The notes beneath the pieces were generated by a model. That model was given only the letters and a program-made list of their open reading frames with translations, was not told the DNA's origin and made no database searches. Shown here piece by piece: positions 12,767 to 52,798 of a stretch of DNA of 64,000 nt. This DNA is from Emiliania huxleyi CCMP1516 (Eukaryota), in contig NW_005201392.1 of assembly GCF_000372725.1 (NCBI RefSeq), forward strand, positions 190,521 to 254,520, written 5' to 3'. The position numbers and the translations under genes were made by a program. The first letter of the stretch is position 1. The number at the start of each line of letters is the position of its first letter.

Positions 12767-14236
12767 ATGTCTGGCTACCCCGACCGCACCACGCCCAAGT
12801 GGGTGGCGGCGGATTCGGCCGGCCGCAGCGCCACCCGCTGCATTCCGCTGGATGGCTGCGTCGAAGAACTCCGCTCCTCCCAGGTGCGCCGGCCGCCCCA
12901 CCCGCCCCGGCTTCCGTCCCGCGCATCCACGCTCGCTCCCCCGCGCCCCAGGACGAGGTGATGATGGGGATCGACGAGGCGGGCCGCGGACCGACGCTCG
13001 GCCCGATGGTGTACGGCTCCGCGTACTGCCGCGTGGCCGACCTGGACAAGCTCAAGGCGATGGGCTTCGCCGACTCGAAGACCCTCACCGAGGCCAAGCG
13101 CGAGGCGCTGTGGGCCGACCTGCGCGCCTCCGGCTTCCTCGGCTGGCGCATTCGCGTGCTGCACGCGCAGGAGATCGCGGCGGGGATGCTGCGGCGGCCG
13201 AGCCCGTACAACCTGAACGCGATGTCGCACGACGCGGCCATCGGGCTCGTGCGTGAGGTCATCGAGCTCGGCGTCAACCTCCGCCACCTGTACGTCGACA
13301 CGGTCGGCGACCCGGAGCACTACCAGGCGCCATGCACACCAGCATGCCCACGGCCATGCACACCACGGATGCTGCCACCGACCCTCTCCGCCCCCTCTCC
13401 CTGGCTGAGCCTGCTCACTTCCACCACCCCCTCCCCCAGCGCAAGCTCGAGGGAATCTTCCCGTCGCTCTCCATCACGGTGGCCAAAAAGGCTGACTCGA
13501 TCTTCCCGGTCGTCTCGGCGGCCTCGATCTGCGCAAAGGCGCCGCGCATCGCGATCCTCGCCCCACCCTCCACTCACCACTCACACAAAAGCACCGCCCC
13601 GCCCCCCCAAGGTCACGCACGGACAGTCAGAAGACAAGACACCGCTCAGCACTCACCAGGCGAATCATGGATGACCGAGGCGTCGCCCCCGGTCAGGTGC
13701 CGCGCGACGCGATCCTCGCCGGCTGGCGCTTCGAGCACCCGAGCTTGGGCGACGGCCACGAAGGGCGGCGGCGGCGGCGGCGCCAGGGCAGTGGACACGT
13801 CCAGGACGTGCCCCTAGGCGACGACTACTCGTGGGGGTGCGGCTATCCGGGCGACAAGGAGACGGTTCGGTGGATGAAGGCCAACCTGCACCCGCTCTTC
13901 GGCGAGCCCCCTCCTCCTGCACCCGCCCCCTTCTCCCCCCAAACCACCTCCTCCTCCTCCTCGCGAGCACCAACCATTCCCCTCTCCCCCTCAACCCCCC
14001 CCCCGCCCCCGCCCCCCGCCCTCCCTCGCGCCGGGCCTCGAGGACCACTCGCTCCCTCGGAACTGTCTCGGAACCGTCCCGTAAGCTGGCCGTCGGTCTG
14101 CCGGTTCTCTTGGGGGCCCGCCCTCGAGGTGCTGGAAAAGAACCCGGCCGCGCAGGGCGCCGTCCCGTTCCCTTGGCCGGACGACGAGGCGCCCGACCAG
14201 GGGGCGCAGCGCAGCGCGATGGAGCTCTTCCCCTAG
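12767..14236 (+). CDS. RNASEH2A: Ribonuclease H2 catalytic subunit A, multi-exon
   Basis: GIDEAGRGPTLGPMVYG, ADSKTL, YNLN, YVDTVG, KKADSIFPVVSAASICAK|VPRD, GCGYPGD, RFSW. Introns at 12884-12951, 13327-13439 (GC-AG), 13539-13696 (GC-AG) and probably two more. Confidence 0.95.
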
Positions 14237-14634
14237 ATGGAGCACCGCACAGCACGGGCTTCCAGGGGGGCACCCCCCCCCCCGCACCACCGTTACCCCC
14301 CCCCCCCCGGCGCGCGCTTTCGCGTTCGGTCGCCCGTGGCTTGCGCGCGATGCGCCGACTGCACCACACCGCCCCGTGCCCACCCACCGGTCGGCTGCTG
14401 CTCAGGAGCTCTTTCTCGGCAAGCGCAAGCGCGCGCCGGCGCGGCGGCACAAGCTCTACCACGACGCTGGGCTCGAGCCAGTGGCGGCGTGGTGAGCGGG
14501 ACCTGGCCACTCCGCTCCCCATCCCGAGGCGCGTCCGAAATGCGTCACCCCTCCCCCCCACGGCGACCCGATGAAGATAACTGGCGCCGGCGTAAGGGGG
14601 GAGACGGTGTTGGTCATCAAAAGAAGGGGAGGGG

Positions 14635-14742
14635 CTGGCGAGGTACTTCCAGCCTGCTGTGGGAACAGCTGACGCAGTCTCGCCGAGGCTCGGGTTGACT
14701 CGGCCAGACAAAAAACCCGGTTTGCTTGGGAGACCTCGCCAG
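14635..14742. mobile_element. 108-bp MITE, TIR CTGGCGAGGT/ACCTCGCCAG, 8-bp TSD GGGAGGGG
   Basis: TSD at 14627-14634 and 14743-14750. Both ends are homologous to the element at 35888-36446. Confidence 0.85.
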
Positions 14743-14810
14743 GGGAGGGGAGAGGAGAAATCAGTCGGGAAAATCTGCCGCCGTCCTGCAGGACTGCTGC
14801 AAGGCGCGAA

Positions 14811-17800
14811 ATGTCTGAGCTGCAGCAGGAGTTCGTTCGTGTCTGTGGGGAGGGCGCCTCCCCCCGGGTGGTCGAGGAGGGCTGGGCCGCGGTCCGAGGG
14901 CTTCTCGAGCAGAGGGACAAGCTGGCCAACCTGGCGAGCTGCGCGCAGGCGCAGACGGCGGGGGGGGGGCACACTCGGCAGCGCACAGCTCTTCATCCCG
15001 CGCCGTTCGGCCCCTCGCCGCACCCCTGCCGCCGCCGCGATGCGGCGCGCCCCGCCCCGCCGCCGAGCGGCCACCTTACACCGGGGCTGCCTCTTCCAGG
15101 CGCCCGCGTCGTTTGGCGCTCAGTTTGCGGCTGTCGCATACCTGACGGGCCTGCGGCTGGGCGAGCCGACACCCGTCGAGCGGCTGGTCCGGAATGCGGG
15201 GATCAGCGTCAAGGCTCGCGCGCGCCAACCGCCCTGCGCAGCTCCGCGGCTGCAGGCCACCAACCACCCCTGCTGTGCCGCAGGACTTTTTCGGCAGCGT
15301 AGAGGAGCAGCACCTGCGGCTGCACCCCGGCGAGCCGATTCCGGAGGCGCTGCGGCGGCTCAAGGAGCACTACATGGCCGCCACGGTCGCGTGGAAAAAG
15401 TACGACCAGCTCTTCGCCACCCTCTTCCCCTCTGGCTTTGTCGGCGCCGCCACCGCCGACCAAACGACGAGCGACGACTCAAAGCAGCTTGGCTGGTGCG
15501 CTTTCCTCGTCGCAAAGTGCCTCGTCTTCGGCGCCAGCGGCGGCGGGAACGTCCTCGACGTGTACCACCTCCTCGTCTGCGTCATCGAGCTGCTCCTGTC
15601 CCACCTCCCACTCGACGCCCGCGGCGGCGCAATCTGGCAGTCGCTCGGCGCCCTCGTGCCAAAGGAGCACTACCCGATGCCGGCGCCAGCGCGCGCCGCG
15701 CTGCACGCGGAGCTGAAGGCGGATCCGGACCGGATCTACAAGCTGGACTCGGCCGTCGCCAAGGTCTCGGCCGACCTGCGCGCCACCCTCGGGCTGCAGC
15801 AGGCTGCCGGCGGCCCGAGCAGCGCGCCCGGCCTGCTGCGCGACGCCGCCAGCCTGCGCAAGGCGCGCGAGGCAGTCGACGCGCGCTACGCCAAGCTCGT
15901 CGTCGAGACGAAGCAGCCGCTTGACGACCGCGCGCTCTCGAGCATCGCGTCGCTGCCGAGCGCGTCGGCTGCGGGCGGCGCGATGCCGCGCGGCGTCACA
16001 TCGCCTTGCCGCAGCAGCTCGGCGGCGTGCGCGCGGTCGGGCAACGCGGTGCTGATGACGCCGCTGCGCGACCCGAACCCGCCCTCGTCGCCCGCGCACA
16101 GCCACCTGATGGCGACGCCGATGTCGGGCCAGCTGGAGTGCGTCGGTTGGCTGCGCGCGGCCGTGCGCGGGGTCCCGGCGGAGGAGGCGTCTGAGGCGCT
16201 CGCCGGGTACTTTGCGCACTGCAGCGCCTCGCCCGCCGAGGCCATCGAGCAGCGGCTGGACGGGCTTTGCGACAAGCTGCGCGCGGCGGCGGGCGAGTAT
16301 GAGGCGGAGGAGATCGACGAGCAGTGCGTGCTCGGGCGCCGGCTCTACCACAAGATGCTGCTCGCCTTCCTCGAGTCGGAGGAGAGGCGGCTGCAGCACG
16401 GGCACTTTGTCGAGACGCTGCTGTCGCAGGGCATCTTCCACTCCTCACTCTTCGCCTGCTGCATGGAGTGCGTGTTCGCCTCCTACTGCATGCAGTCCTC
16501 GGTCTTCCCGCAGATCATGCACACCCTCGATCTCTCGCCCTTCGACCTGTACAAGGTGATCGACCCCTTCGTCAAGCACGAGCCCAGCCTGCCGCAGTAC
16601 CTGCGCGTCCACTTCCGCGAGGTGGAGGTCAAGATCCTCGAGCACATGGCGTGGGCGCTCGAGTCGCCGCTCCACGCGCAGCTGCGCGAGTACGACGCGC
16701 TGCTTGCGTCGCCGGAAGCGGCGGGCGGCGAGTCGCGCGCCGCCACCGCGCTGGAGCAGTTTCTGAAGAAGGTCAAGTATCTCGCGGCCAGCCGAGTGAA
16801 CGACCTGTGCCTCCGGCTGCTGCTGCGCAAGGAGCTGGTGGCGCAGATCTGGGAGTGCATCAAGGTGGTGGTGGAGGGGCCCGCGCGGCACCTGATGAGG
16901 GGCCGCCACCTCGACCAAATCATCATGTGCACCATCTACGGTGTGTGCAAGGTCAACAAGCGGCAGGAGGAGGCGCCAAAGACGTTCCGAGACATCATCG
17001 AGCAGTACAAGCGGCAGGACAAGGCGGCGGCCAAGGTGTTCCGCGAGGTGCGCATGGGTGACGCTGGGGAGCCGCCGCAAGACATCATCGCCTTCTACAA
17101 CAAGATCTTCATCCCGGCGATGAAGGCGCGCCCGCGCCGCCGCCCGCCCCCCCCCCCCCCCCCCGCCGTTTCCGCTGCGCAGTCGTTGGCCGCTTCCCTG
17201 CCCTCCTCTCCCTCGCCCCGACAGCGTCCCTCCGTTGCCGAAGGACCACCTGCTGCGCATCCTCGACGCGTCGCGCAAGCAGCAGCGCTCGCCCTGCTCC
17301 ACGCTCCAGTCCACTGCCGAGTCCGAGATCCGGCCGCCGAGCGGCGTGCTCGCGTCGCCACAGCGCGTCCTTGGCGACAGAGACGTCTTCGTGTCGCACC
17401 CGCGCACGCCAGTGGCGGCGATGACGCCACGGACGCGCACGCTCTACGCGTTTGGCGACTCGCCGTCCGGTGCAACCCTGCCGCTGCCGCTGCCCCCCGC
17501 TTCCCTCGCGACGCCTCCCTCGTAGCCGCCGCACGTGATGTGCATCGGACCACCCCCGCCCCACCCCCGGGATGCCTGTAGGGGGCCTCTTGCGCATCAA
17601 CCACCAGCTCGCCTCCCAGCCGAGAGACGGGTCCGACGCCGCGAACGCGCTGAGGGCCTTGTCGACCACGCCGTCGCACGGCGCCGCCAGCGCCGCGATG
17701 CCAGCCCCTGCGGCGGTGCCGGCGCCGGTCGAGCGCAAGCGGAGCCACGAGGGCGGGATGTCGAAAAAGCAGCTCCAGCGGCGGCTCGCCGACGACGGCG

Positions 17801-17850
17801 CGGCGATCCCTGTCGACCGCTCATCGAGCCATGGCTCCTCCTCAGGGTGA
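14811..17850 (+). CDS. RBR: Retinoblastoma-related protein; exons 14811-14948, 15100-15213, 15284-17125, 17244-17469, 17582-17850
   Basis: Pocket A (LYHKMLLAFLESEE, FHSSLFACCMECV, FDLYKVIDPF, EVKILEHMAW) and pocket B (RHLDQIIMCTIYGVCKV, DIIAFYNKIFIP), plus many SP/TP CDK sites. Splice phases are consistent; 3 of 4 donors are GC. Confidence 0.93.
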
Positions 17851-18091
17851 CGAGACGCGGTGTTGGGCCGAGGGCGGAGGCCCTCGAGTGGTGGAGGCCC
17901 TCCTCCTGAGGCCCTCGCTAGCCTGCGCACGGGCCACGGCCAGGACCCACAACGCACAAGAACGGCATGTGTTCAAACTCACAATGTGCGTTGACTGTGT
18001 TATATGTGGGGCAGCACACAGGTCTCCGGCTGATCTTGTGTTCGCGTACGTACACCATTTTTTGAGCCGTTCGTTCTTAACGTCTCTATAG

Positions 18092-21000
18092 TAGGGGTCG
18101 GGACAGGTCGCCAGAAAAATAAATTCGAGCGCCCCAAAAACAAATAAATTCCAGGTCCCTAAAAATCCTCAAATCCAGCCTCGCTTCGACTTCGATGGCC
18201 TCCGACTCTCCGTCGCATGCGCGACCCGGCCGGGCTGGTCCGCTAGCCGCCCGGCCGATCTGCTGCGCTTTCAGGCGAGGTTTGGGGCACCACCGCGCCC
18301 TATGGCAGCGCTCCGGGGCCTCCGTTTTGCGCGGGAAAGGTGATCCGTGGCAGTTGGCGAGCTTTTCACTGGCTGCTGCAGCCCCTCCTCCTGATGCTTG
18401 GAGCGGCCCCTACCCAGCCCTACCCAGCGGAACCGACGCAGCCAGCAGGGGTGAAATTCTCAAAAAGGTGCAGCACTTCTAGCCGACATCGACAAAAGTC
18501 CCTCTCTAGCCCCGCGGCGAGCGGCCCCGCCGGAGGCGAAGAAAATTTCGCCATCTAGCGCTCGCAACACATAGATTTGTGCATAAATCAACACCTCCAA
18601 TCTTCGGGGGAGTGACGGATAAAGGCGTGCGAAAGAGCTAATGAATCCGAAAGCAGCGAATCCAAGTGATGGCCCGCCGCAGGCGAAGAAAATTTAGGGT
18701 TGGGGTTCCCCTATGCCAAAGAACTCTTATTAGAGGATTTCGGCGGCCGGCGCGCCGAGGCACAGCGGTTCGCGCTGCCTGCTCGCGCTGGTTACACCGT
18801 TGCTGTGGCCGTCTTCGTCCGTATTGTACACCGAGCTGGCGCCACAGCAGAGTACAACAACGGCTCGGACTAGCTGCTCCACGGTACTACATCATCAGAG
18901 GGCCCGGCAAGGTCCACGGCGGAGCTGGCGGTGGTGGGAGTGGTGGTAGGAACGAAGGCGCACCTGTCGGCGATTCACCGCCGTTCGTTCCCGTCTCTCA
19001 AAGCTGGTTACACCGTCGATGCGCACATCGAGGCGCTCGTGGACGAGAGAGACGTCGCCTCCTCTTTCGTCCCGGGGCACTGTTCACGCCGGAAGGCCCC
19101 GTACACTGCCAAGTACATTAGCCTTCATCTCTCCTACCGCCGGCCGGGAGTGCAGCCGCCACCAGTGAGATTGTCCTCGACGTTGGCACCTGCGAAGTAA
19201 TGAACAACAGGCAGTGCGTCATATGGCGCTATGATAGCCCTGCGGTGGACGTCCTCGACGCAGACGAGGCGGAGCTCATCTGCGCGGCGCAGATCGCCGA
19301 CTGTCTCTCCCTCCCTGCGCGAGTGGTTGCACCACCCTGGATGAGGCATCTGGGCTGGGGCAGGGCCGTTAGTAGAGGAGGGCGACTGAGGGCGCGAGGC
19401 CGCCAATCGTCAAAGTCTGCTGCGACTGACTGTCGGTCACTGACTGAGCAATGAGCAATCGCATCGGCGGTTTCACTCACGCTCACAATCGGGTTACATC
19501 CAGGTCTCTGTGCGGGATGTGCTGGGGGGCTGCCCCCCAGTCGATTGCCGCATAGTTCGTCGATGTAACCCTACCAGAAAGCTGTATTCACACCTACCCT
19601 TCCAAAAAAAGAAATGTCCCTGCTTTTGTCGAAGATCCGGCGGGTTTATCGGAGCATCACCCGCAGGTGTTTAGCGCCCCGCCCTTGGATCCACCCACAG
19701 TGCGGCCCACAGCCGCGTGCAGCCCTGCAAACTCACGCGCTCTGCGCCGCTCTGCGCAGGCGGGCCCGTCTGCCTGGGCAACAGCGAGCAGGTCGTCGCG
19801 AGTCTGCACTTCTTCGACTCCCTGTCCGACGAGCAGAAGCGGCTCTGGGAGAAGATGCAGTCGCCGGCCGCGCCGATGGCGGTCGAGCCCGAGGACAGCT
19901 CCATCTTTGCGGCCGCTCCCGCGCCACTCGCGCCGACGCCCGCTGGACCTTTCTACGCCCCGGGCAAGGCGGCGGCGACGGTGATCGAGGTGCAGGTCAT
20001 CGGCACACTCGTGCTGCTCTACTTCAGCTCGGACGTGCGCGCCGCGCAGCAGTGGGTGCTCAACGCGGAGAGCGACGCCGACCGAGTTGGCCGCTGCGGC
20101 CTCGACGGCCAGGTGTGGGCGCCGCCTTCCTCCTCTCCGACCTGGGCGACGCACGGCCCCGTTCTTAAGCCCCTCGACACCGCGCTGTCGGTCCGGATCG
20201 GCGGCGGCGAGGTCGAGACCGCCGCCGCCGTGGTGAGCACGTGGAGCGGCTCCGTCGGCGTCGTCACGCCAGCTCAAGTTGACGCTTACGTCGTCGCGCT
20301 GCGCCAGTCCAAGTCCAAGCGCAGGATCGCCGGGCCCGTGCGCGACATGAAAGGCAACGCGTCGCCGCGGCATGTGGCCGCGATCCCGGCGGTGGCGGCG
20401 CTGCTGCGCGTGAGCGGCCGAGTTCTTCGAGATCGTGTGGCCGTCCTCGCCACTGAGCCAACGTTCGAGCCGAAGTGCTCCAAGGCGGACCTGCACGAGC
20501 GTCTCGAGGCGGCGGAGCAGCAGAACACGGTGCTGCAGCAGAAGCTCACGCACGCGAACCAGCTCAAGTCGCAGGCGCAGCTGCTCGCCAAGGAGAAGGG
20601 CAAGATGCGCATCGCCGACACGGTCGCCGCGCAGGTCAGCAAGGTCCGCTCTCGCCTCGAGAGCGAGTACGACGACAAGCTGCTGCGCGAGAAGGCGCGC
20701 GCGCAGGGCGAGCTCGAGCGGGCGACCGCGGCGATGGAGAAGAAGCTGGTGCAGGCGAAGCGGCTGAAGACGGACGCGCACGCGGAGAAGCGGGGCGAGC
20801 GGGCCAGGGCGGAGGCGCAGAGCGAGCTCGCCGACACGCGGCTGGGCAAGTTGAAGGCGCTCAAGGATAAGCTGGCCGCGACGGAGGCGGAGTGCGAGGA
20901 GCTCAAGGCGCAGCCCGGCGCCGACCCGACCGAGATGGAGACGCTCTACGAGTCCCAGGGCAAGGTGCTCGCTATGGACGTGTGGGAGAGGGAGGCGCGC

Positions 21001-24452: not shown

Positions 24453-26341
24453 TCAACCTTGTCCTTGATCTTCGAGCAGCAACCGCTCGAGCAGCGCATA
24501 GTCCTTCGCGTACACCTCGCGCACCAGCGAGCGGAGCTCAGCGGACTGCTCCCACGCCGCCCGGGCCTCCGCCTCCCGGCTCGCGTTCTGTCCCGACTGC
24601 GGCGGGATCGCCCTCCGGTGATGGCCGAGGCGTGGCTGTGCGTGGCGGGCAAGCCGCGGCTCGGCCCGGAGGAGGCGGCCGTACTCCGCCTCGAGCGCCT
24701 CGAAGCGCCCCACAAAGTGGAGGGCGCCGGCCGCGCCGTCAGCGGGCAGGAAGCAAGCCTGCGGCCGAAAGTGGATCGGGACGCGCGCCCAGTGCCCCTC
24801 GAGGCGCTGCAGGTGGAGCAGGAAGAGCAGCGGGTCGGCGCCAAAGTCGCGACGGAGCATCTCCGCCTAAGTGATTGATAACTTGTCCGTGACCAACCAC
24901 TCTCTCAATCAGGCAGGGCCGCGGTGGAGCATCATCCGCCGCGAGAAGGTCGTGCGGTGACACGGCGGCGGCGGCGGACTGCGTGAGGCCGCGGAAGAGG
25001 AGGTAGTAAAAGGCGGAGAGGAAGCGGTCAAGAGGGTCGCGCACAAAGGCGAAACGGAAGGCGCCGTCGTACGCACGCGGGCCGAGCAGAGCGCGCAGCT
25101 CCGCCGCCGTGAGGTGCTGCGAGTAGTGGTCCTGCGCAAAGATCGCCGCCTCGAGGCTGGTGCCCGCGCAGCGCGGCACGTGCACAAAGACGGCGCGCCT
25201 GTTTGATTCGAGCACGGAGCTGACGACTCAAGAGTGAGACGCGTGCTCGAAAGGCGGCGCGCCGAGACGCGAAGCTGGCAGCCCACGCCGCCGACCTCCG
25301 ACCGTTGACGCAGCGGGAGAGCGGGTCCCACTCGGCCGGCGCGTGCGCGTCTGGCGCAGGCACGCCGTAGTAAAAGGAGAAGATCTGCGCGGGCGTCGCG
25401 CCGAGCTTGTGCCACAGCATCACCGCCTGGTTGATGGCATTCACTCTCCACACCTTGCCTCGCTCCCACCGGCGGGGCGAGCACAGCGCCGCGGCGTCGA
25501 GCGTGGCGATGCGCGCCGCTCCACCCGCCGTCAGCCTGCGGACCTGGTTGACGAGCATGTACTCCTCGAGGATGCACCTGGCGCGACGGAAGGCTGCTCG
25601 GCTGGTCTCGGTTGACCTAGGTTGGTCTCTCGGGTAGTCTCTCGGGTAGTCGCACGTCGGCGGATATCCCCCCAGCGCGTCCAGCGTTGCGCGTGTCGTC
25701 GCCAGCGCCTGGTCTCCGAACGGCAGCTCGTACCAGCGCGAGCGCAGGTTGACAGTCCACTCCATCAGCGCGAGGCCCGCGGGCGGCGAGTGCGCCTCGG
25801 CGAGCTGAGCGCGGTCGCACTGAAACGAGAAGGCCGTCATCAGCACCGCCCGGTCGGAGAGCGAGCGAAGCAGCAGCGCATCCCACAGCGCTGGCAGAGC
25901 CGTGTCGGCGTGCAGGACGAGCACGGCGTCGCCCGTCGCGTGCCGCACGCCGGCGCGGACGGCGGGCCCGCGCCCGCCGTGCGACGTCTCACGCAGGAGC
26001 CGCAGCCGCGGGTGTGCCGCCGACCACTCGGCGACAAGATCCATCGTGCGGTCGCGGCAGCCGCCGTCAACGACGATGACCTCGACATCGTCGAGCGATG
26101 CCGCGCCGTGGTGCAGCGCGTCGAGGCAGTGCCGAATGCTCCTCTCCTCGTTGTAGGTGGGCAGCACGACCGACACGGTGCGGAGGGGTGGCAGCGTGGC
26201 GGCTGGCGAATGCAGCGGCGGCGGAGGCCTCAGCCTTCCGAGGAGGCGGCGTATGGCGTCGAAGAAACCAACCTGGAGAAGCATGAAGGACTGCACGGCG
26301 ACTACGAGCAGGTAGTCGACGAGGCCTCCAATCGTCCGCAT
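24453..26341 (-). CDS. Fusion of GT2 glycosyltransferase (TIGR04283-like) and Sulfotransfer_2-type sulfotransferase; exons 26341-25656, 25577-25263, 25198-24940, 24866-24453 (557 aa)
   Basis: GT2 motifs VSVVLPTYNEE, VIVVDGG, LHADT, LPFGDQAL, LEEY, SPRRWE. Sulfotransferase motifs FVHVPRCAGTS (5'-PSB), FVRDPLDRFLSAF (3'-PB), HFRPQ, FVGRFE, VYAKDY. Exon lengths sum to 1674 nt, in frame. Confidence 0.8.
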
Positions 26342-29269: not shown

Positions 29270-31098
29270 TCAGTGGTGGCGACTCTGTCCACGGCCGCCA
29301 CGGCCGCCACGGCCGCCGCCGCGACCGCCGCCCCGGCCCCCACCCGCCTGGCTCGCCATCCCTCGACCACCACGGCCAGCGCCACGGCCGCCGCCGCCAC
29401 CTCTGCCGCCGCCTCTGCCGCCGCCCATGGCGCCACCGCGGTTGCCGCCGCCGCCGCCGCCACCGCGCCCGCTGGGGCCTTTTGCGACGACTAGACCCGG
29501 TGTGCCGCGCAGGCCCATCATGCCGACCGTCTTGGCTTGGAGCGTGGGCACCTCGGGCAAGCCGAGAGCGCCGAGGGCAAACGCGTTGGCGGTGGCGACG
29601 AGGGTGCGCGCGTCCCACCGCATCGCCTTCATCTTCTGCTTGTAGTAACCGAGCCACGCCTGGTACGCCTTCTCGCGCGTCCCCACGTCGACCGCCTCGA
29701 CCGCACCGCACGCCTCGTCGCGCGCCGCGCCGACGGCCGCTGCCGACGGGCTCGCTTCGGTTATGGGCAGCCCTGCCAGCATGCCCATCGTCGCGCGCTC
29801 CTCCCACTCCGACAACAACAGCAGCGCCTGGCCCGACTTGCCTGCGCGCCCCGTCCGCCCCGTGCGGTGCACGTACTGCTCCCGGCTGTCGGGCGCGCCG
29901 AGCTGCAGCACGAGGGTCACGTCGGGGTAGTCGACGCCCCGCGCGGCCACGTCGCTCGCGACGAGCACGCCCTCGCGGCAGTCTCGGAACTCGTTGGAGA
30001 CGCGCGTGCGGTACGCCTGCGACTTGCGCGAGTGCAGCGGCGCGTTGCTCACGCCCATCGCTGTGAAGAGCTCTGAGACGAACTGCGCCTGCTCACAGGG
30101 CCCGCTGTGAAGAGACGCTGTTCAAAGCGCATCGCCGCGAAACGCCTCGAGACGAACTGCACCTGGTTGGCGGTGGGGCAGAAGACGACGATCTTGCCGC
30201 TGCCCGCGGCGTCCGCGAGGGCGCGGCGTGCGGCGAGGGCGGCGAGGGCAGGCACGGCGTTCATCTCGGCGGCGAGGTAGCTCTGCGCCACCTTGGACGC
30301 CGTCTCCGAGTCGGCCGCCGCGCCCACGCAGTCGATGACCCTGTGCCCGCGTTTGAGAGTCTGGCCGAGGACGGCCGAGAGCTCCGCAGGCATCGTCGCC
30401 GAGAAGCAGAGCGACTGACGCTCGCTCGGCAGCTTGGCCACGATCTGTCCAATCTCCCTCGCAAAGCCCTGATCGAGCAGCCGGTCGCCTTCGTCGAGGA
30501 TCAGCGTCTGCAGCCCGCGCAGCCGCGTCGCGAGTCCCTCGTTCTCCATGTGGTCCTTGAGCCGACCCGGTGTGGCCACGAGCAAATCGACCTCACCACC
30601 GAGCCGGTTGAGGTCTCGCTTCATGGGCGTGCCGCCGAATATGCACACAGCCTTGAGCCCGCTACCCGGCACCAGGCTGGCGGCGGCCTCGGCGATCTGA
30701 GCCGCGAGCTCTCGCGTCGGGCTCAGCACCAGTGCCCGAATCTGGCCCTGAGGTCGCTCGGACGTGCTCAGTCGGTGGAGCGTCGGGACGAGAAAGGCAA
30801 GTGTCTTTCCCGTCCCGGTGCGGGCCTTGGCGACAACATCTTCCCCAGCCAGCAGCGGCGGCATCGAAGCGCTCTGCACAGGTGTCGCGAACTCGTGGCC
30901 GAGTGCCGCGATGTTGCCTCGCAGCGACGACGAGATCTCGAGGTCTGCAAACCGCAGCATCTCCACGTCGGCGGCGGTGCGAGTCGCCGTGGCCAGCATG
31001 CGCGCTGATGCGCTGCCGCGTACGGCAGCAAGTCGCGTGAGCGCCGCGCTGGTGATCGCCGCGCCGTGCAGCACGGACAGCACGCGAAGGGCGCGCAT
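29270..31098 (-). CDS. DEAD-box RNA helicase (Mss116/CYT-19-like) with RGG tail, probably organelle-targeted; intron 30162-30089
   Basis: Q motif, ARTGTGKT, SPTRELA, ATPGRL, DEGD, SAT, SDVAARGVDYPDV, YVHRTGRTGRAG, AYQAWLGYY and a C-terminal RGG-rich region. Confidence 0.92.
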
Positions 31099-38522: not shown

Positions 38523-41384
38523 ATGCCACGCTTAGCGTCGACGATCATCGCAATCGCCATCCCAGCCATCGCGGCCATCTCCGTGCAAGGTGCCCGACGC
38601 CGTCTTGCCTACGGCGGGCGTGACTACGACTGGCCCGTTCATTGGGAAGGGAAGTCCTTCGCTGACGCGTTTGAACAATCACCTGCTCGGCCGATGCACT
38701 CAGACGGCAGAGACATCACCAGCACAGACGACTGCCCGGCGCCGCTCAAGGCGGCGTGTGCCTCGAAGGGTGCGCGAACTGGCGGCCTAGCTTAAAGGCG
38801 TAGAACTGCGAAAGTCACATGGTAGTGAGTTGCTTCTGCCTCAGGCGTCAAGGCGGCTCACCTTGAGGGGCCCATCGCTTGCGGCGGCCAGGGCGCGTGG
38901 TGCCGCATCATGCCGAAGGCCGCTACCCGCCTTGCACGCCTCCCGGCCACTCCCTCTGCTCCTCACCGCTCCCACTCCTCCTCCCATGCCGAAGGACAAC
39001 TTCCCAACGCCATGCGGCGATTTCGGGAGCGCCTGCGGCGAGTTTAGCGACCCTAACTTCTTCTACTGCAACGGGACGACGGTGCGGAGTTCGTGCCCCT
39101 TAGCTACGTAGTGCCACACATGATACCTGAGCTCTCTGTGCCAGCCGCGTGGATTGACGGGTGCTTGACGTTCGACCCCCTCCTCGCTGCGCAGGGCAAT
39201 CTCCTGCCGGAGGGCGAGATAGGCCACGCCCACGGCTTCCGCCGCGACGCCACCTACACCGCCGAATCTGGCCTGGGGAGCGGGTGGCTCCAGGACCACT
39301 GGTGATCGCGCACCCACCAGCCGTAAGTGCTGTCGTCGTCCGAGCCATGACAGTGGCCGTCCGTGCCTATGATAGGTTCCGTGCCTACTCGGGCACCCTG
39401 CACTGCTGTTGCAACCCGTTCTCCGCGACCGGTGTGGTCAACCGGATGGACGCGGGCACCGACGGGCGGCCCGAACAGGAGATCGATCTGGGGTGGTGCG
39501 AGGGGGAGGAGAAGCAGGATCCGCTCTACAGCGGTGGCGAAGAGTGCTGGTCGGTCGAGTTCTTTGGTGACTATATGGCACTGCCGCTCACGGCGGCCGA
39601 GATGCCGCCACCCTACCCCAACATTTTGCCTGGGGAGGGGTCGCCATCTCCGTCGCCCTCGCCCTCGCCCGGCTCCAAGACATATGTCATCTCGGGAGGG
39701 AGCTTCATCTCCCCGTACTACGACTTTTCGCCCGCGCTCGAGCCCCTCGAGCCGGGCATGACGTACACCTTCGAAGCGGCGGGCATTGCCGCCAACCACC
39801 CCTTTGTCATCGCAGTGGCGTGGGGCATCGTCCCGGAGCCGCTCCCAACGCCCTTTCTGCAGGTGCCAGGGGAGCCGCTGCGACTCCTCGCCGGACGCAC
39901 ACGCAGACTCCCAAGACTCCCAACCTCCCCCGTAGGAGGGAGCGTTCCCGCTCGTCGGCAGCAGCGGGACCGTCACCTTCACTGTGCCGCCCTCGTACAA
40001 CGGCTCTCTCCGCTACTACTGTGACCGGCACGGCGACATGTCAGCGCTGCTGCCGCTCGCCGGCGTCGGGCCGCCAGCCCTCACGTGTCCATCGGAGGTG
40101 TGCGACTTCATCTGCCAGCCCTCCGCGTGCATGCTGCCCTCCTGCTCCCAGCTCTGCTCCAGGTGCTGTGTGCCAGTGCCGACGAAGCCACCCCCAGCGC
40201 CGCCACCGCCGGCATCCTCCTTGCCGCCACCCTCCCCCGCGACCGCCTCCGGATGCAACAGCGACGGGTGGTGCCAAAGCCCGGAGGGCCCATCGCAGCA
40301 GTGCGCAGACGACGCTGGACCACCATGGGCAGACGACCTGGATAACTTTGGCGCAAACGTCCGCTACCACGACAACACGCCCGCCGAGCCCATCCTGCCG
40401 GCAGACGGCGCCTGCCCTGGCGCCCTTGCCGGAGCGTGCGCTGTCAAGGGTATCAAGGCCGCCTATCTTGATGGACCGATCGACTGCGGCGGGCAGGGCT
40501 GGTTCTGTCGCATCATGCCGCAGCCCGGTTGGGGGGACTGCAGCTATGGCGACTGCAACTTTGCGAACTGTGCCACGCCAAACGCGGACGAGCTCGACAC
40601 GGACGGCCACTGTCATGGCTCGGACGACGACAGCACTTACGGCTGGTGGGTGCGCGATCACCACTTCCGAGGCTATACAGGCACGCTGAACTGCTGCTGC
40701 GGGTCAGCGACGCACTTCACCGCACCGCCTCCGCAACCCTCCCGCGTCTCTAAGTTGCGCCCGCCTTGTAGGTGGGGTGAGCCGATGCACGGTGTCGTCA
40801 ACCGCTGTGACTACCGCAAGCCCGTCAGCGGGGACGAGGTGTCTACTTGCCGCGACGCGAACGAGGAGCACAGCGTTGATTTCAACCCCACGTGCGACGC
40901 CCATCCTCTCAAGCCCGACCCGGTCACGAACGGCGGCATGTGCTGGACGGTGCGCAGCTTTGCCGCCAAGGACGACGACGAGGGCGGAGGAGGAGGCGGC
41001 GGCGGCGGCGGCGATGACGATGATGAGGAGGACGGGGAGGAGGAGGAGGAGCCCGAATGCTCCACGTTAGAGGACAGGGAGGAGTGCGAGGATGCAGACT
41101 ACTGCAAGTGGAAGAAGAAGAAGCAGCAGTGTAAGGACGGCAATCAGGACGATGACGATGACGACGAGGAGGAGCCCGAATGCTCCACGTTAGAGGACAG
41201 GGAGGAGTGCGAGGATGCAGACTACTGCAAGTGGAAGAAGAAGAAGCAGCAGTGTAAGGACGGCAATCAGGACGATGACGATGACGACGAGGAGGAGCCC
41301 GAATGCTCCACGTTTGAGGACAAGGAGGAGTGCGAGGACGCGAGCTACTGCAAGTGGAAGAAGAAGAAGTGTAAGGACAAGTAG
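38523..41384 (+). CDS. Secreted multidomain protein: signal peptide, two homologous Cys-rich domains, cupredoxin-like domain, Pro-rich linkers, acidic C-terminal repeats
   Basis: Hydrophobic N-terminus. A duplicated domain (G.KAA.L.GPI.CGGQG..CRIMP...GH.HG...DH.FR.Y.GTL.CCC). NHPF...YYCDRHGDM matches a type-1 copper ligand pattern. Confidence 0.7.
41040..41381 (+). repeat. 120-bp coding tandem repeat (about 2.8 units; EEEPECSTLEDREECEDADYCKWKKKKQQCKDGNQDDDDD)
   Basis: Seen directly in the sequence. Confidence 0.95.
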
Positions 41385-41871: not shown

Positions 41872-44298
41872 TCAGCCCTTCTTGCGGAAGCTGCCCTTGC
41901 TCTTTCGCTTGTGGAAGGCAACCGGCGCGGCGGCGGCGGCCGCTTCCTCCGCCTCGCCCTGCAGCGCGGCTTCGCGGATGACGTCGGGCACCTGCGGAGG
42001 CCCAACAAGCGCCGAGAGTGAGGGGGCGGTGTCGAAGGCGGGCGGTGTCCGGTCGGGCGGCCGCGCGCCGCATACTTTGCCCGGACCTGGTCGACGATGT
42101 CTTGCCGGTCGTCCTACAGTCACGACCTCTCCTCCTCCGTCCCCGCCGGCCCCTCTTATCTCAGCGGGGGGGGGGGGGGGGGGGGGGGGGGCACTCCTTT
42201 TTTTTTTCGGGCCCCCCCCCAAAACCCCAAGGGGGGGGGGGGCCTTTTTTCCCCCCCCCCCCAAATGGGGGGGTTGGGGAAGGTTCCACCCCCCCCCAGG
42301 GCCCTTCGGGGGGGGGAAAGAAGGGTTTTGAGGGGTGGTGGGGAAAGAAAGGGGGAAAAAGGCCCCCCAGGGGAAAAAAAAAAGGGGGGAACCCCCTCCC
42401 GGGTCCCCCCCCCTTCTAACCCCCTTTCCCCCAAATGAAATTTTTCCCAATCCGCGGGCCCCAAAACCTTTGGAAGGATTTGTGGCCCCCCCCCCCCCCC
42501 CCTAAAGGGGCCCAGGGCCGGGCTTTTTTAAAAAAACCTCCCCAAAAACACTGCCCCCCCCCCNNNNNNNNNNNNNNNNNNNNNNNNNNNNNNNNNNNNN
42601 NNNNNNNNNNNNNNNNNNNNNNNNNNNNNNNNNNNNNNNNNNNNNNNNNNNNNNNNNNNNNNNGCCCCGCATCAATGGGTCGCCAGGAGCGGGCGGGCCT
42701 TCCTTCGTAGAGCTGCGGTGAACCGCTCCGAGGGAGCTCCCCCCAGCCTACCATGGAAGGGCAGTGGGCACACCTTTCCAGGACCTGTAGGAGCGAGGGT
42801 CAAGACCGCCCGGAAGCTTGGCGCCCGAAGAGATTCAAAGATCTGGTTGCGGAGTAGCTTCCGATCCCAAAGGCCGCGTCGCGGAAGCCGCCTACGCCCG
42901 AGGCGCCGTACCCGCACTGCTGTCGTCATTACTCAGCGCGCTCGACGAGGCGGCGACGGTGAGGGGCTGAGAGGGGGCAGCGAGGGGTGAGAGAAGACGG
43001 GCGGAGCCACATCCCGGCTCCGCCCTCCTCCTAGCCCCCTCTCGCCCAATCGCAATCTCTCCCAGTCCGCGCGCACCGAACCCTGTCGACGGATCTGCAG
43101 CCTCCTCGCCCTCCGCCTCAGCGGCGCCAGCGCCGGCCTCCTGTAGCAGAGCCTGCACGAGAGCACTGCCGCCCGCCGCTCCGCCGCTCATGGCCTCGCC
43201 GCTCGATGCGCCGCCGCCACTGTCAACGCCGCCACCTCCGCCGCCGCCACCGCCGCCGCCGCCGCTGCTGCCGCCGCCGCCGCCGGCACTAGCACCGGCA
43301 CCGGTGTCAGGCAAGCGGGCGGCGCGGGAAGGCCCCAGCGCCGCGCCTTCGCCGAAGAAGTCATACTCGGCCTCCTCCGCCGCCGCGCCCGCCGCCGACG
43401 CCGCGCCCGCCGCCGCTGCTGCGTGGGCCTGCCCCGCCGCTTCGTTGGCCAGCCCCGCCGCTTGCGCATCGGTCGAGCCCTCGCTCCAGCCGGCAGGCGC
43501 CTACCCACAGCACACGAGGCACCTCGCGAAGCGGTAGCCCCACGCCTCGACCCTCCCCGTGCGGCGGGCGCGCCTCCCATTGCGTCGTCTGGCTCGCCGC
43601 GTGGTAGTAGTACGGCACGCCCTCGGGCGAGTAGCCGCACTGCCAGCCGGGAGCGCCGCCGCCGCCGCCAGAGCTTGCGGCGGCGGCGGCTGGGTTCTCC
43701 CACTGCGTGGCGCCCGTCTCCTCGTGCACGTAGTAGAAGCTGTCGGGGAAGGGGGAACGGGGGGTGGGGGGTTGCATGTGCATGTGCATGTGCATGTGCA
43801 TGTGCATGTGCATGTGTCTCTTGCTCGGTCGAGTCACCGGCCGTCTGGGTTGGCCTTGACCCTCCAGCCGTCGGGCGGAGGCAGTGCTTTCCCGCCGGCC
43901 GCGCCGCCGGCCGCGCTGCCAAACGCGGCACCGCCCAGCTGCTGCTGCTTCGCCGAAGCGAGCCGCGCTTCCAACTCGGCGAGCCGCGCAGCCCGGTCCG
44001 CCGGCCCGCCGCCCACCGCTGCGACCGCACCACCGCCGCCGGAGCGAGGGCCAGGGCCCGCGTCTTTCATGTACTGGCGCATCGCGTCGCGCTCGATCTT
44101 TTGCAGCTCGCGGCTCACCTCCTGCTCCTCGTGCCGCCGCTCGCGCCCGCGCTTGCGCATGTCCTTCATGAAGAGCTCGACGATCTCCTTGTGCTTGCGC
44201 CCATTCTCATGGAAGGCGATGGACGGCTTGGAGCCGTTGATGAAGATCTTGCAGTACTCGCACCAGTGGCGGGCCTGAGAGACCCAGTACTCCGTCAT
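41872..44298 (-). CDS. WBP4: WBP4/FBP21-like splicing factor (U1-type zinc finger plus two WW domains), interrupted by a sequence gap
   Basis: MTEYWVSQARHWCEYCKIFI...HENGRKHKE; WW domains GWR...FYYVHEETGATQWENP and GWQ...YYYHAASQTTQWE; C-terminal VAFHKRK. The join across the N-gap is inferred. Confidence 0.8.
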
Positions 44299-45504: not shown

Positions 45505-45546
45505 GATTGGCGAATAGCTCCAGCAGCCGGCATGGCAGCGCCCGTT

Positions 45547-47887: not shown

Positions 47888-47888
<1 letters not shown>

Positions 47889-47958: not shown

Positions 47959-47960
<2 letters not shown>

Positions 47961-49547: not shown

Positions 49548-49659
49548 TTCTGGACATCTCCATAGCCGTTTTTGACCCTCTTTCACATGGTCATGATCCC
49601 GTAGGTGCTGACCTCTCCGTTCGCCGAGATGGACCCGACGGAGATTCGGAGATGACCAT

Positions 49660-49990
49660 CGCAGTACTGTTATTGCTGGGGACTGGAGACTGTGCTGAGC
49701 GGAGACTGTGCAGAGTCTCCAGTAACCAGTACAAATAGTACTGCTCTGCACAGTCTAGTAACCCAGTCATAATAGGAGTGCTCTGCACAGTCTCCAGTAA
49801 CCACTAATAATAGGAGTGCTCTGCGCAGTCTCCAGTCCCCAGTCATAATAGTAGTGCTCTGCACAGTAAACCAGCAGCAGAGCTCTGCTGCACAGCCTCC
49901 AGTAACCAGTAATAATAGTACTGCTCTGCACAGTCTAGTAACCAGTCATAATAGTAGTGCTCTGCACAGTAACCAGCAGCAGCAGTACTA
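49660..49990 (+). repeat. Degenerate minisatellite with about 40-bp units (AGTACTGCTCTGCACAGTCT..AGTAACC..ATAAT)
   Basis: About 7-8 recurrences of TGCTCTGCACAG and AGTAACC. Confidence 0.85.
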
Positions 49991-50052
49991 TCACATGAAC
50001 CCGTCTCTCTTTGGCGTGCATACCCCCGCGCGGCTGCAGGAACTCGATCAAC

Positions 50053-52798
50053 ATGCTCGACAAGCTCAAACTCGAGCTCGTGCCGGCCGCTGGTGACAAG
50101 CTCGTGCTCAAGCTCTCTCCTCCGCCGCCGCCGCTTGCTGACAAGCAGGCGTGCTTGCGCGCACGTGACAATGCGCTCCCACCTGCAAGACCTATCCTCC
50201 GGCCTTCTGGGTGACACAGGCGTCGCTGGCGGGCAACACGACCGTTAACGCTGCCGGAGGCGAGGCCGCCGGCATCCCGTCCGAGGGCAAGCCCGCTTCG
50301 CTCGAGGACGTCATCGGCAACGGCAATGACGTCCCGTCCGAGTCGGCGCCGACGGCTCCTGTCGGCATCACATCGCTGTCGCCTTCGCTCCTCGGAGCCG
50401 AGGTGAGTGTGCGCACGCCAGGATTGTCATCATCCCTCTACGGTCTCCCTGTCTCCGCACACTTGCGTGTTCTCCCCTCACCCAGGCGTGCGGCATCAAG
50501 TCCGCCGCCGCCGAGGAGTCCGCCGCCAAGTCCGCCGCCGCCGAGGTGTCCGCCGCCGCGGAGGCAGTCGCCGAGGAGGCGCCCGTCGCCGAGGAGGTCG
50601 TCGCCGAGGAGGTTGCCAAGGACGTCGAGAAGCCGGCCAAGACCGTTTCCAACACGCCCGACCCAACGGTGAGCCAGCATTCTCTCCTGGCACTAATCGC
50701 TTCCCACCCACCGGTAACAATTCTCTCTCCGAACCAAGAACGACCCGGCGCTCAAGCCGGTCATCAAGATCGACACGGCTCTCAAGCAGGCGGCGGTTTG
50801 CGGCGAGACGCTGCCGTCGGTCAAGGAGCCTCCGGAGGAGGAGCCCGCCCCGGCGGCGAGCGCCTCCCAGCACCATTCCGTGCACACACTGTCGTAAACC
50901 CCGTGACTCTGTCGTACGTCGCGCGCAGGGCATCGACGAGTGGGCTCTCAAGCCGGCGGTGGCCGGCGGCGAGACGCTGCCGTCGATCAAGGAGTTTCCG
51001 GAGCCCGCCCCAGCGGCGAGCGCCTTGCTTCTGTGCCGTGCGCCTGCGGACCCACACTGACTGACCCCACCCCGCTTTCATTGCGTAGGGCGACGACGGC
51101 TGGAACGTCTCGGCCAAGGAGTTTCCAAAGGAGAAGCCCGCCCCGGCGGCGAGCGCCGCATTCTGTGCCGTGCGTCTGCGGACCCGCTGACTGACCCCAT
51201 CGCGCGTTTTATGCGTAGGGGCCCGACTGGATCGCCTCGAACTCGCGCAAGAAGACGGAGCGCAAGGGCGAGGTCACGCCCACGAAAGTCTCCAACAAGT
51301 ACGGTCTGCTCGACGACGTCGAGACGAACGTCATGGCGGAGATCGACGAGGACGAGGACGAGAAGAAGGCAAAGGAGAAGGGCGCGGAGTCGGGCAAGGA
51401 GTCCACGGTGCGCGCCCTCCCACACAGACGACACACACTGCCCCGCGCCCTTGCTAGCGCGTCGCGCGCACCGCAGTTCGAGTCTGTCTCGCCCGAGTCT
51501 GTCGGTGGCATGGCGCCCCGCGGCTCCACGCCGTCGACCACAGACTCGGTGCTCGCCGCCTCTGCATGCGCCGGGCTCCCTTTTGCCCGTAGCTCACAGC
51601 CAGTCTGACTCCCACGCCCCCTGTTCAGGGCGCGCGGGTCGATAAGACCACGACGGTCGAGAAGACCACGACCGGCTCCGTCTCCGGCTTCGGCTGGTTC
51701 TCCTGGCCCAAGTTCTGCTGGCGCGACATGCTCTGCACCGTCTTCGTCTGCCTGATCGCGGTGGGCGCGAGCGGAGGGGCTTTTGCCTACTTCTCGCACG
51801 GCTCTGACAGCCTTCTCCCTTCGATCGCTGTGCCCGATGCGACGGCGCTCCCGACCGAGCGAGTCCGCGCCGAGACAGCCAGCGCAGTGCTGCGGCCCCA
51901 GTACCAGCCGTCGCCAGTGGAGCGCGAGTGGGCGAGGCTGGTGGCGGAGGTCGATCCGAGGGAGTGCCAGCACGCCTGGTCGAACGGCTCGCGGCTCATG
52001 GCACGGCTCGAGCGCGACGTGGCGTCCAGCGCCGTGTTTGAGCAGAGTTCTTCCTTCACCGTGGGCCCCGAATCCCAAGCCCTCGTCTGGCCTATCGAAC
52101 CTCTGGTGTCCTTCTTGCGTTGGCCCGCAGCGCTGTCGCCAGGCCATACCACGCGCGCGGCCATCATGAACAAGAGCTACTACCAGCTCGCGCCGGTCCG
52201 GGCAGGGTCGCGCCGCTTCTTGTTCTTCGACATAGGGGCATCGCTGTACTCCAGCGCTCGGGCGGGCGGTGATGGCGGCTCGTCACTGCGCTGGTTCAGG
52301 AACCGCTACCAGAACCTGACAGGCTCCCCACAACCTTTCGACCACATCTACGCCTGGGAAGGCCAGGAGTACAACGCCACCGTCCTGTGGGACTCGTTCC
52401 CCGCTCAAGTGGTCCCGTTTGTCTCGTACTACAACGTTCGAGCCGACGCGCGGCCCAACGCCAAGCACAACCCGCTCCGAGTGCTGACGCAGGTGGCGCG
52501 CCTGGACGACCACGTGGTCATGAAGCTGGACGTCGACCACCAGGCGACGCAGGTTGCGCTCATCCAGCAGGTCCTTGGCAACCGCAGGATCTCGGCTCTG
52601 ATCGACGAGCTCTTCTGGGAGCACGAGGTGGCCGGATCCGCGATGGGCTGCCCACGGCTCTGGAAGGGGCGATCGGGTCATGGATGGTCGACAATGAGGT
52701 TTGACACCTCACAGGGCCGTGGCGGGACGCTCGCCGAGTCTTATGAGCTCTTTGGGCGGCTGCGCTCACTTGGCATCGCCGCACACTCTTGGGTCTGA
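50053..52798 (+). CDS. Type II membrane protein: multi-exon acidic/repetitive N-terminus, TM helix, FkbM/Methyltransf_21-like domain (start uncertain)
   Basis: FLFFDIGAS, DHIYAWE, VVMKLDVD, LIDELFWEH, LRSLGIAAHSWV. An exon starting at 51629 reads in frame into the 51728 ORF. Confidence 0.65.

What the first reader, a model, noticed from the sequence alone, without database searches (positions are those of the whole stretch)
13539..50230. Short introns bounded by 8-24 bp duplications of the flanking exon: signature of a duplication-based intron-gain process
Seen in sequence: in unrelated genes, the intron start copies the start of the next exon. RNASEH2A 13539 GCGCCGCGCATCGCGATCCTCGCC vs exon 13697 GTGCCGCGCGACGCGATCCTCGCC (21/24). 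DEAD-box 30162(-) GTGCAGTTCGTCTC vs GCGCAGTTCGTCTC (13/14), with CTCTTCACAGCG also repeated in intron and exon. Sulfotransferase 24939(-) GCGGATGATGCTCC vs GCGGAGATGCTCC. 25262(-) GCGCGCCG (8/8). WW 43573(-) GCGCGCCCGCCG vs GCGCCTGCCG. 50149 GCGTGCTTGC vs GCGTCGCTGGC. At 38919-38994, CATGCCGAAGG spans both junctions. Most are 64-76 nt with GC donors and otherwise unrelated interiors, so they are not one introner family. Established: tandem duplication of a G|GY protosplice site and repair of staggered breaks are proposed intron-gain routes with few clear natural examples. Inference: such a route is active here and would explain the GC donors, since the donor is copied from GC-rich exon sequence. 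About half of the introns examined (BBS8, RBR, tubulin, transposase) lack the pattern.
Basis: partly seen in the sequence, partly recalled or inferred. Interest (0 to 1): 0.85.

Follow-up and report, generated by a model that had tools for sequence, protein, structure and literature searches.

The report
Introns copied from their own genes
In this stretch from the bloom-forming alga Emiliania huxleyi, about one intron in five begins with a decayed copy of the exon that follows it, and one predicted intron, likely absent from some wild alleles, is a perfect backwards copy of its own gene, which suggests that DNA-break repair copying nearby sequence makes new introns.

Summary
The window encodes Emiliania huxleyi proteins. 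Three named introns are spliced in RNA contigs. Firm copies are 12-30 nt (58 in the DEAD-box intron), longer than reported. Only about a quarter of introns show them, not half. The interiors are not one family.

New and stronger: predicted intron 39302-39375 holds a 66/66 reverse-complement copy of exon sequence 1.3 kb downstream, with microhomology at each switch, and public ORFs with a linked variant lack it. Its splicing is not shown.

Best reading (0.6): templated insertion during break repair creates introns, helped by permissive GC/GT/GA donors; re-gain or overwriting at old sites is undecided. A second haptophyte shows the pattern in 3 of 4 introns. New variant of the Daphnia-type route; not found in print in ten searches.

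The parts
13539..13696 (+). RNASEH2A intron after K197 (phase 0, GC-AG, 158 nt). First 24 nt copy the next exon (21/24). Position shared with human intron 5 and 4 of 9 haptophyte relatives. An internal C-rich AAG|GT at +73 may mark two stacked insertions (inferred).
   Evidence: RNA joint in X10 and X12; transcript contig L001
13749..13817 (+). RNASEH2A intron after aa 214 (phase 1, GC-AG, 69 nt, in frame without a stop). Starts with a decayed copy of the next exon (score 21). Absent in 9 of 9 relatives.
   Evidence: skipped in transcript contig L001
14222..14405 (+). RNASEH2A intron after M288 (phase 0, GA-AG, 184 nt). 8/8 then 10/12 copy; the GA donor equals the exon's first two bases. Position shared with L014.
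   Evidence: RNA joint with 9 ambiguous bases in X10 and X12
24867..24939 (-). Intron of the glycosyltransferase-sulfotransferase gene (GC-AG, 73 nt). 26-column copy with 20 matches, 5 transitions and 1 gap.
   Evidence: RNA joint; P0288/P0289
25199..25262 (-). Intron of the same gene (GC-AG, 64 nt). Copy of about 25-30 nt (score 33).
   Evidence: RNA joint; P0288/P0289
25578..25655 (-). Intron of the same gene (GT-AG, 78 nt, in frame without a stop). Weak copy (score 13, p=0.04), not counted among the 8.
   Evidence: P0288/P0289 skip it
30089..30162 (-). DEAD-box helicase intron (GT-AG, 74 nt). Almost wholly exon-derived: 41 of 58 columns match the next exon, and a second copy supplies the acceptor. 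Relatives keep Ala at the exon start (GCG here), so the GT donor is the derived form. Splicing inferred.
   Evidence: no RNA check
38770..38844 (+). Predicted intron 1 of an unnamed 793-aa gene with two internal repeat domains. Weak copy (score 15, p=0.02). Absent from the second domain and from P0273.
38919..38994 (+). Predicted intron 2 of that gene (GC-AG, 76 nt). Mirror-image case: the last 10 nt copy the end of the preceding exon. Absent from the second domain.
   Evidence: no RNA check
39302..39375 (+). Predicted intron 4 of that gene (GT-AG, 74 nt). 39300-39365 is a 66/66 reverse-complement copy of 40598-40663; it then switches through a 6-nt microhomology to 4 further nt of the next exon and ends TGATAG. 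Missing in P0259/P0262/P0264, likely an intron-less allele.
   Evidence: splicing not shown
40598..40663 (+). Exon segment that is the template of the 39302 insert. It is the part of repeat domain 2 homologous to the sequence just upstream of the insertion site in domain 1.
43501..43573 (-). Predicted intron of the U1 zinc-finger/WW gene (GC-AG, 73 nt). Copy score 18, borderline.
   Evidence: junction from reading frame only
50149..50219 (+). Predicted intron of an unnamed gene (GC-AG, 71 nt). Copy score 18, borderline.
   Evidence: junction from reading frame only

Best explanation
These are spliceosomal introns whose 5' ends are copies of the adjoining exon, likely made when a DNA break in coding sequence was repaired by end joining that copied nearby DNA before sealing (inferred). 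Shown: the copies, their anchoring at the junction, their exon-to-intron direction, splicing of five of the eight, and one insert with an exact template and microhomology at its switches. Inferred mechanism: the broken left end primes on the right flank, copies 12-60 nt, lets go, adds filler or further templated pieces, and rejoins at the break, giving exon1 | copy + filler | exon2. Less often the right end copies the left flank (38919) or a more distant template is used (39302). The insert survives if the copy begins with G plus C, T or A, which this alga accepts as a donor, and the filler ends in AG, because splicing then restores the message exactly. The copy then decays and the 3' end gains pyrimidines. 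The polymerase (theta-like) is a guess from the junction pattern. At 13539 and 14222 the same event either re-created an intron at an old site after loss or overwrote the start of an old intron; this is undecided.
For: Statistics and anchoring. The 13539 copy fits this species' exon best (38 versus at most 28 in relatives). DEAD-box relatives keep Ala where the intron has GTG, and 9 of 9 close relatives that reach the site read across it. Sulfotransferase relatives read across the 25262 site (5 of 5) and the 24939 site (3 of 3 that reach it). Site 13749 is empty in 9 of 9 relatives. Copy-bearing introns have fewer pyrimidines in their last 20 nt (0.54 versus 0.68, p=0.0015), as young introns would. 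The DEAD-box intron holds two overlapping copies. The 39302 insert is 66/66 templated with a 3-nt and a 6-nt microhomology, matching the repeat signature described for synthesis-dependent end joining (passage of PMC7407515). Three ORFs on 6 contigs lack it while keeping both neighbouring introns; all 3 carry W-I where 7 of 7 ORFs ending at the insert's stop (21 contigs) carry W-L or W-R (p=0.008). GC donors make up 56-65% in this species (passages of PMC4028052). Locus L004 shows the pattern in 3 of 4 introns seen.
Against: Two of the eight sit at positions shared with other lineages, one with human. Lineage restriction does not single out copy-bearing introns, because copy-less ones (aa 164, 242) are also unique and even close relatives L008 and L016 share no intron. 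The source of the filler is unknown for 7 of 8 (no whole genome). Extension of copies beyond 25 nt is significant only for the DEAD-box intron (combined p=0.06). Splicing of 39302 is not shown, its DNA was not seen in other alleles, and P0273 shows that such contigs can lack one intron and keep the next, so partial splicing could mimic an allele. The independent part of the signal is modest (p=0.01-0.05). The three copy-bearing or weak-copy introns that could be checked looked fixed. 24 of the 37 junctions have no RNA support. The pyrimidine and donor tests were chosen after seeing the data.
Confidence: 0.6

Rival explanations
1. Old introns are overwritten, not gained. A break inside an existing intron is repaired by copying across the exon1-exon2 junction, from the spliced transcript or its cDNA or by slipping between the two junction ends, and the end then rejoins the rest of the old intron (an aborted intron loss).
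For: 13539 lies at K183|V184 of the human chain, and the human intron 5 donor is c.549+1 (passages of PMC10340131). It is present in L011, L012, L014 and L016 without a copy; 14222 is present in L014 without a copy. These two are the long members (158 and 184 nt versus 64-74). Four of eight share only one G between exon end and intron end, which an RNA template would not need.
Against: The sister lineage L009 (98/99 support) lacks both. AAG|GT is an ideal site for repeated gain, and parallel gain made up 48% of new Daphnia introns (passage of PMC4202315). The DEAD-box and 39302 introns contain no old remainder. Low pyrimidine content argues against inherited 3' ends.
Confidence: 0.18
2. Classic tandem duplication (Rogers model): a 65-75-nt exon segment holding AG|GY is duplicated head to tail, and the 3' half of the new intron later diverges beyond recognition under selection for branch point and acceptor.
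For: The DEAD-box intron matches over 58 of 74 nt, and loose alignments of 13749, 25262 and 50149 run to 48-57 columns. Local tandem repeats are common inside these introns. 13749 and 25655 are in frame and stop-free.
Against: The distal test is not significant apart from DEAD-box. The upstream exon ends in AG in only 4 of 8. 13539 drops from 21/24 to no match abruptly. It cannot produce the inverted 39302 insert.
Confidence: 0.12
3. Decayed transposon-derived introns: elements that carry the acceptor and take the donor from their target-site duplication, from several old families or from retro-elements with long variable duplications.
For: This layout is known (Symbiodinium, 4-bp duplication; passage of 10.1101/2022.06.06.494994). 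Two cases have exact 9-nt repeats (14222, 25262). L004 interiors carry repeated motifs.
Against: Copies are 12-58 nt and variable. There is no similarity among nine interiors (best local score 24) and no terminal inverted repeats. 39302 and DEAD-box come from their own genes.
Confidence: 0.07
4. Chance plus selective reporting in GC-rich sequence, with 39302 an assembly chimera.
For: The annotation-free scan found no enrichment at AG-anchored pairs (p=0.30). Two named cases are borderline.
Against: Permutation p=1e-5 under two nulls. ORFs reading from inside the 39302 insert exist on JGI and ENA contigs (P0256, P0257). L021 carries the same 13539 copy.
Confidence: 0.03

Closest known systems
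Break-repair neointrons of Daphnia pulex (PMC4202315: passages and section 19; PMC3443670: passages)
   Same: [quoted passage not shown]
   Different: Daphnia repeats are 4-12 bp (33 repeats of this kind among 90 new introns) and the inserts are AT-rich. Here the copies are 12-58 nt, mostly on the donor side, supply GC or GA donors, remain visible in apparently fixed introns, and one insert has an exact inverted template in its own gene.
[quoted passage not shown]
   Same: The donor is taken from previously exonic sequence and the message is unchanged. The DEAD-box intron fits closely.
   Different: Most introns here are only partly copy, half lack an upstream AG, and there are many cases in 64 kb instead of single examples.
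Introner elements (10.1101/2022.06.06.494994, passages; PMC11282704, first fifth and passages)
   Same: One splice site co-opted from duplicated gene sequence; non-canonical donors; marine algae, including a Chrysochromulina family with a 4-bp duplication.
   Different: No family, no inverted ends and no fixed duplication length in this window.
Templated insertions of synthesis-dependent / polymerase theta end joining (PMC7407515, passages)
   Same: Direct or inverted copies of nearby sequence, with microhomology at each switch and several rounds of synthesis (39302, DEAD-box).
   Different: Described there as repair scars, not as a source of introns. The enzyme was not tested here.

Membership tests
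Introner elements | Many introns share sequence up to both ends | tested here: not met
   Nine interiors all-against-all, best local score 24, no BLAST hits among them. Window only; the genome was not available.
Introner elements | Short fixed-length target duplication (3-8 bp in the passages read) | tested here: not met
   Copies of 12-58 nt with gaps.
Introner elements | Terminal inverted repeats (present in a subset of families) | tested here: not met
   Best half-against-half inverted score 8-20.
Rogers tandem duplication | Whole intron is a copy of flanking exon | tested here: inconclusive
   Met for DEAD-box only; distal test combined p=0.06.
Rogers tandem duplication | AG|GY in both copies | tested here: not met
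   The upstream exon ends in AG in 4 of 8; all 8 end in G.
Break-repair neointrons (Daphnia type) | Direct repeat of adjacent exon end above background | tested here: met
Break-repair neointrons (Daphnia type) | Absent from outgroups | tested here: inconclusive
   Met for 13749, 24939, 25262 and 30162; not met for 13539 and 14222; untested for 43573 and 50149.
Break-repair neointrons (Daphnia type) | Presence/absence alleles within the species | tested here: inconclusive
   Likely for 39302, from protein translations only; not seen for DEAD-box, 25262 or 25655.
Break-repair neointrons (Daphnia type) | Repeats more frequent in new than in old introns | tested here: inconclusive
   Ages known only in RNASEH2A: copies in 2 of 3 shared and 1 of 3 unique positions, which does not favour new introns.
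Polymerase theta / synthesis-dependent end joining scar | Templated insert with microhomology at each switch | tested here: met
   39300-39375.
Polymerase theta / synthesis-dependent end joining scar | Depends on the polymerase | not testable with these tools
   Needs induced breaks in mutants.
Spliceosomal intron | Removed from transcripts | tested here: inconclusive
   Shown for 13539, 13749, 14222, 24939 and 25262; not shown for 30162, 38919, 39302, 43573 or 50149.

The most novel reading that the evidence does not exclude
E. huxleyi, and separately at least one other haptophyte lineage, is building introns genome-wide and still today from its own genes by templated break repair, possibly using the transcript as template (the 39302 insert is antisense to its own message). 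This would account for thousands of introns, seed the species' majority of GC donors, and re-create introns at ancient positions, so that a shared position need not mean a shared intron.
Probability: 0.3. Interest if true: 0.88.

Novelty: new variant of a known kind. Interest (0 to 1): 0.75.

Why it matters
Apart from introners, the source sequence of newly gained introns is rarely found. The review read here lists 5 clear break-repair cases and notes that thousands of new introns fit no mechanism (passages of PMC3443670, 2012). One 64-kb window gives 6 firm and several weaker introns with a readable local source, plus a likely polymorphic one with an exact template. If the one-in-five rate holds genome-wide, a globally sampled alga with many sequenced strains becomes a system in which repair-driven intron birth, parallel gain and the rise of GC donors can be counted directly. 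The RNASEH2A case also warns that an intron at a human-shared position can be young in sequence.

Tried and rejected
No whole genome was held, so no genome-wide score or filler search was possible. Reads were laid only on 12700-28400; junctions beyond have no read-level check. In one search, 24 joint rows were hidden; among the 15 shown the DNA run had no joint at any intron, which does not prove fixation. An annotation-free scan for AG-anchored repeats was swamped by ordinary repeats (window p=0.30; ten relative loci p=0.09); it served only as the lead to L004. The distal-extension test was not significant except for DEAD-box, so the 48-57-column alignments are not claimed. Intron remainders matched their flanks at p<0.02 only for DEAD-box and the two paralogous introns. 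A home-made gene finder gave many false models; only introns in plausible genes were read from it. The representative-protein search and the Atlas search never ran, so spliced proteins for the WW, 50149 and 38.5-kb genes were not obtained. Pfam has no family for the 38.5-kb gene (2 queries). Four uncertain introns (two in the 31.9-34.7-kb gene, one in the WW gene, one near 27.5 kb) and the tubulin 5' acceptor were left out because a boundary could not be fixed; genes outside 2.9-52.8 kb were not annotated. Introns 51016 and 51149 were dropped as tandem paralogues (39 to 37). PMC3174169 and PMC13685798 (passages) held nothing on this pattern. Four of five look-ups of earlier findings returned nothing.


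Full report
Organism and data. RNASEH2A exon 2 is 100% identical to a protein named as Emiliania huxleyi (P0003); the window is about 65% GC. No whole genome was held. I catalogued 39 introns and used 37, dropping two tandem paralogues. Thirteen have RNA-level support. Ten are joints in RNA contigs (7 of them in two studies). 13749 is skipped in transcript contig L001. 25655 is skipped in P0288/P0289. 17126 has only its donor side fixed by contig ends. The other 24 rest on homology or reading frame.

Is it real? All seven cited matches are present. I scored the first 30 nt of each intron against the first 30 nt of each next exon, anchored at the start. Eight of 37 cognate pairs reach 17 (13539, 13749, 14222, 24939, 25262, 30162, 43573, 50149), against 1.0% of non-cognate pairs (p=3e-9). 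Permutation gives p=2e-5 for the 13 RNA-supported and 1e-5 for all 37, and 1e-5 when stratified by the exon's first two bases. The mean score peaks at offset 0 (the high value at -60 is self-overlap). 43573 and 50149 are matched by a non-cognate exon and are borderline. The 3' mirror test gives p=0.013 overall and 0.37 in the RNA set; 38919 is its one clear case (10/10).

Anatomy. Firm copies are 12-30 nt, with mostly transitions in the best-aligned ones (24939: 5 transitions, 0 transversions). The DEAD-box intron matches its exon over 41 of 58 columns and carries a second copy whose last bases, with one A-to-G change, form the acceptor. Beyond nt 25 only this intron is significant (combined p=0.06). 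The direction is exon to intron: relatives keep Ala where the intron has GTG, and the 13539 copy scores 38 against this species' exon and at most 28 against relatives' exons. Interiors share no family and no inverted ends. Copy-bearing introns have fewer pyrimidines in the last 20 nt (0.54 versus 0.68, p=0.0015) and more non-GT donors (7 of 8 versus 10 of 29, p=0.014) (both tests chosen after seeing the data). In 6 of 8 the donor equals the exon's first two bases, including the GA donor of 14222; in two it differs by a C/T change.

Are the positions new? I aligned RNASEH2A in 17 of 21 metagenome loci (two duplicates of L004 and two distant hits left out), which gave nine distinct, apparently genomic haptophyte relatives. 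The aa-197 intron (13539) is present in 4 of 9, aa 288 (14222) in 1 of 9 and aa 214 (13749) in none. Aa 197 aligns to K183|V184 of the 299-aa human chain, and the human intron 5 donor is c.549+1, the end of codon 183 (passages of PMC10340131). But the window's sister locus L009 (98/99) lacks aa 197, 214 and 288, and L008 and L016, about 0.08 changes per site apart, share no intron, so turnover is fast and re-gain is possible. None of 14 introns from six relatives reaches 17 (mean 5.8, null 6.4), versus 3 of 6 here (p=0.018). Nine of 9 close DEAD-box relatives that reach the site read across it, and several run into unrelated sequence later, as calls on unspliced DNA do. Five of 5 sulfotransferase relatives read across 25262 and 3 of 3 across 24939. 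Among E. huxleyi-type ORFs, 8 of 8 read into the DEAD-box intron and 9 of 9 into 25655 and 25262, so these look fixed.

A gene at 38523-41384 gives an open 793-aa frame from seven predicted exons and has two homologous domains; introns 38770, 38919 and 39302 are absent from the second domain. Positions 39300-39365 are a 66/66 reverse complement of 40598-40663, the part of domain 2 homologous to the left flank. The insert starts on a TGG shared with the exon end, leaves its template through TCCGTG, shared with the next exon, copies four more bases of that exon, and ends TGATAG. Exact look-ups returned 15 of 15 cluster members. Seven end at the position of the insert's stop (21 contigs), two read from inside the insert (4 contigs), three read straight through while keeping both neighbouring introns (6 contigs), two are uninformative, and one (P0269) continues in different sequence. 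All three read-through ORFs carry W-I, none of the seven does (p=0.008), and they share a 3-residue deletion in the next intron. An intron-less allele is the likeliest reading. Against it: I saw translations, not DNA; a close paralogue is possible; P0273 lacks 38770 but keeps 38919, so partial splicing or a second polymorphism occurs; and splicing of 39302 is not shown.

A second lineage. Locus L004 has an intronless RNASEH2A, but both introns of its transportin-3/importin-13-type gene start with exon copies (scores 33 and 30). The pattern scan first flagged them and a gene finder blind to the pattern recovered them. A third intron has a repeat of about 21 nt spanning the junction (seen by eye) and a fourth has none. 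None is RNA-checked. Plausible introns in L009 and L013 showed no copies (highest score 15), so the pattern is patchy.

Mechanism. One process accounts for forward copies, the mirror case, the double copy and the inverted insert: end joining in which a broken end primes on nearby sequence, extends, releases and rejoins. Direct and inverted repeat motifs of this kind are the described signature (passage of PMC7407515). Selection keeps only products that splice out cleanly, and a spliceosome that takes GC in 56-65% and GA in a few percent of donors (passages of PMC4028052) makes this likely in GC-rich exons. The enzyme, the template type (DNA or RNA) and the filler source are inferred or unknown. 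I give 0.6 to this, 0.18 to overwriting of old introns as the main process, 0.12 to plain tandem duplication, 0.07 to decayed transposons and 0.03 to chance.

Comparison and novelty. It works like the Daphnia break-repair route (4-12-bp repeats, 48% parallel gains; passages and section 19 of PMC4202315) and overlaps the tandem-duplication model (passages of PMC3443670; abstract of PMC4974935). It fails the introner tests within the window. Ten library searches found no report of this pattern in Emiliania or other haptophytes. The introner survey's main text does not name Emiliania; its supplementary species tables were not seen and may bear on this. Subscription papers are largely outside the library. 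Earlier scan notes list single duplication-born introns in other genomes; I did not test them and they are not support.

Verdict. A real feature and a new variant of a known kind; interest 0.75. The frequency, the readable sources and the likely polymorphic case make an open question testable with existing strain data. The claim of pure gain must be softened for 13539 and 14222.

Noticed in passing
   Followed up: partly
window 13902-14220: RNASEH2A intron 13902-14084 ends in AA, not AG, at the RNA-defined joint, and the next exon differs from transcript L001 at 13 of 136 nt, versus 0-2 in the other coding exons: a divergent allele or an assembly error.
   Followed up: partly
window 13612-13696 and L021 1322-1506: The 3' part of intron 13539 follows an internal AAG|GT, is 27 nt longer in L021, and by eye resembles the high-depth repeat near 26370-26430; possibly two stacked insertions. 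BLAST did not confirm the likeness.
   Followed up: partly
P0269 (site of window 39302): An ORF that continues after DHW in sequence unlike either allele: a possible parallel insertion, or a chimera.
   Followed up: no
L004 8813-8680, 7007-6851 and about 12.5 kb: Exon-copy introns in another haptophyte, with internal tandem repeats and TGATTGC-type motifs.
   Followed up: partly
window 44573-45506: Glutathione-peroxidase-like gene (label from recalled motifs) with an in-frame TGA near 44877, likely selenocysteine.
   Followed up: no
window 12767-17850: The public model P0003 fuses RNASEH2A with the retinoblastoma-related gene and reads 13749-13817 as coding; transcripts show a separate 317-aa RNASEH2A.
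   Followed up: yes
window 24450-26341: A family-2 glycosyltransferase fused to a sulfotransferase, 557 aa, also fused in relatives P0243 and P0244.
   Followed up: partly
window 33880-34130 and 42670-42950: An inverted near-duplicate beside the N gap; the second copy has many small gaps and may be low-quality sequence.
   Followed up: no
window 36650-37806: An alpha-tubulin gene whose 5' part was not found upstream; 35890-36440 resembles a short element at 14640-14760.
   Followed up: no
window 50856-51218: Three exon-plus-intron units duplicated in tandem; two introns are 90% alike over 41 nt.
   Followed up: partly
L009 1-3400: BBS8 lies head to head with RNASEH2A in the sister locus; in the window about 8 kb, including a duplicated segment (7570 = 11447), separate them.
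   Followed up: partly
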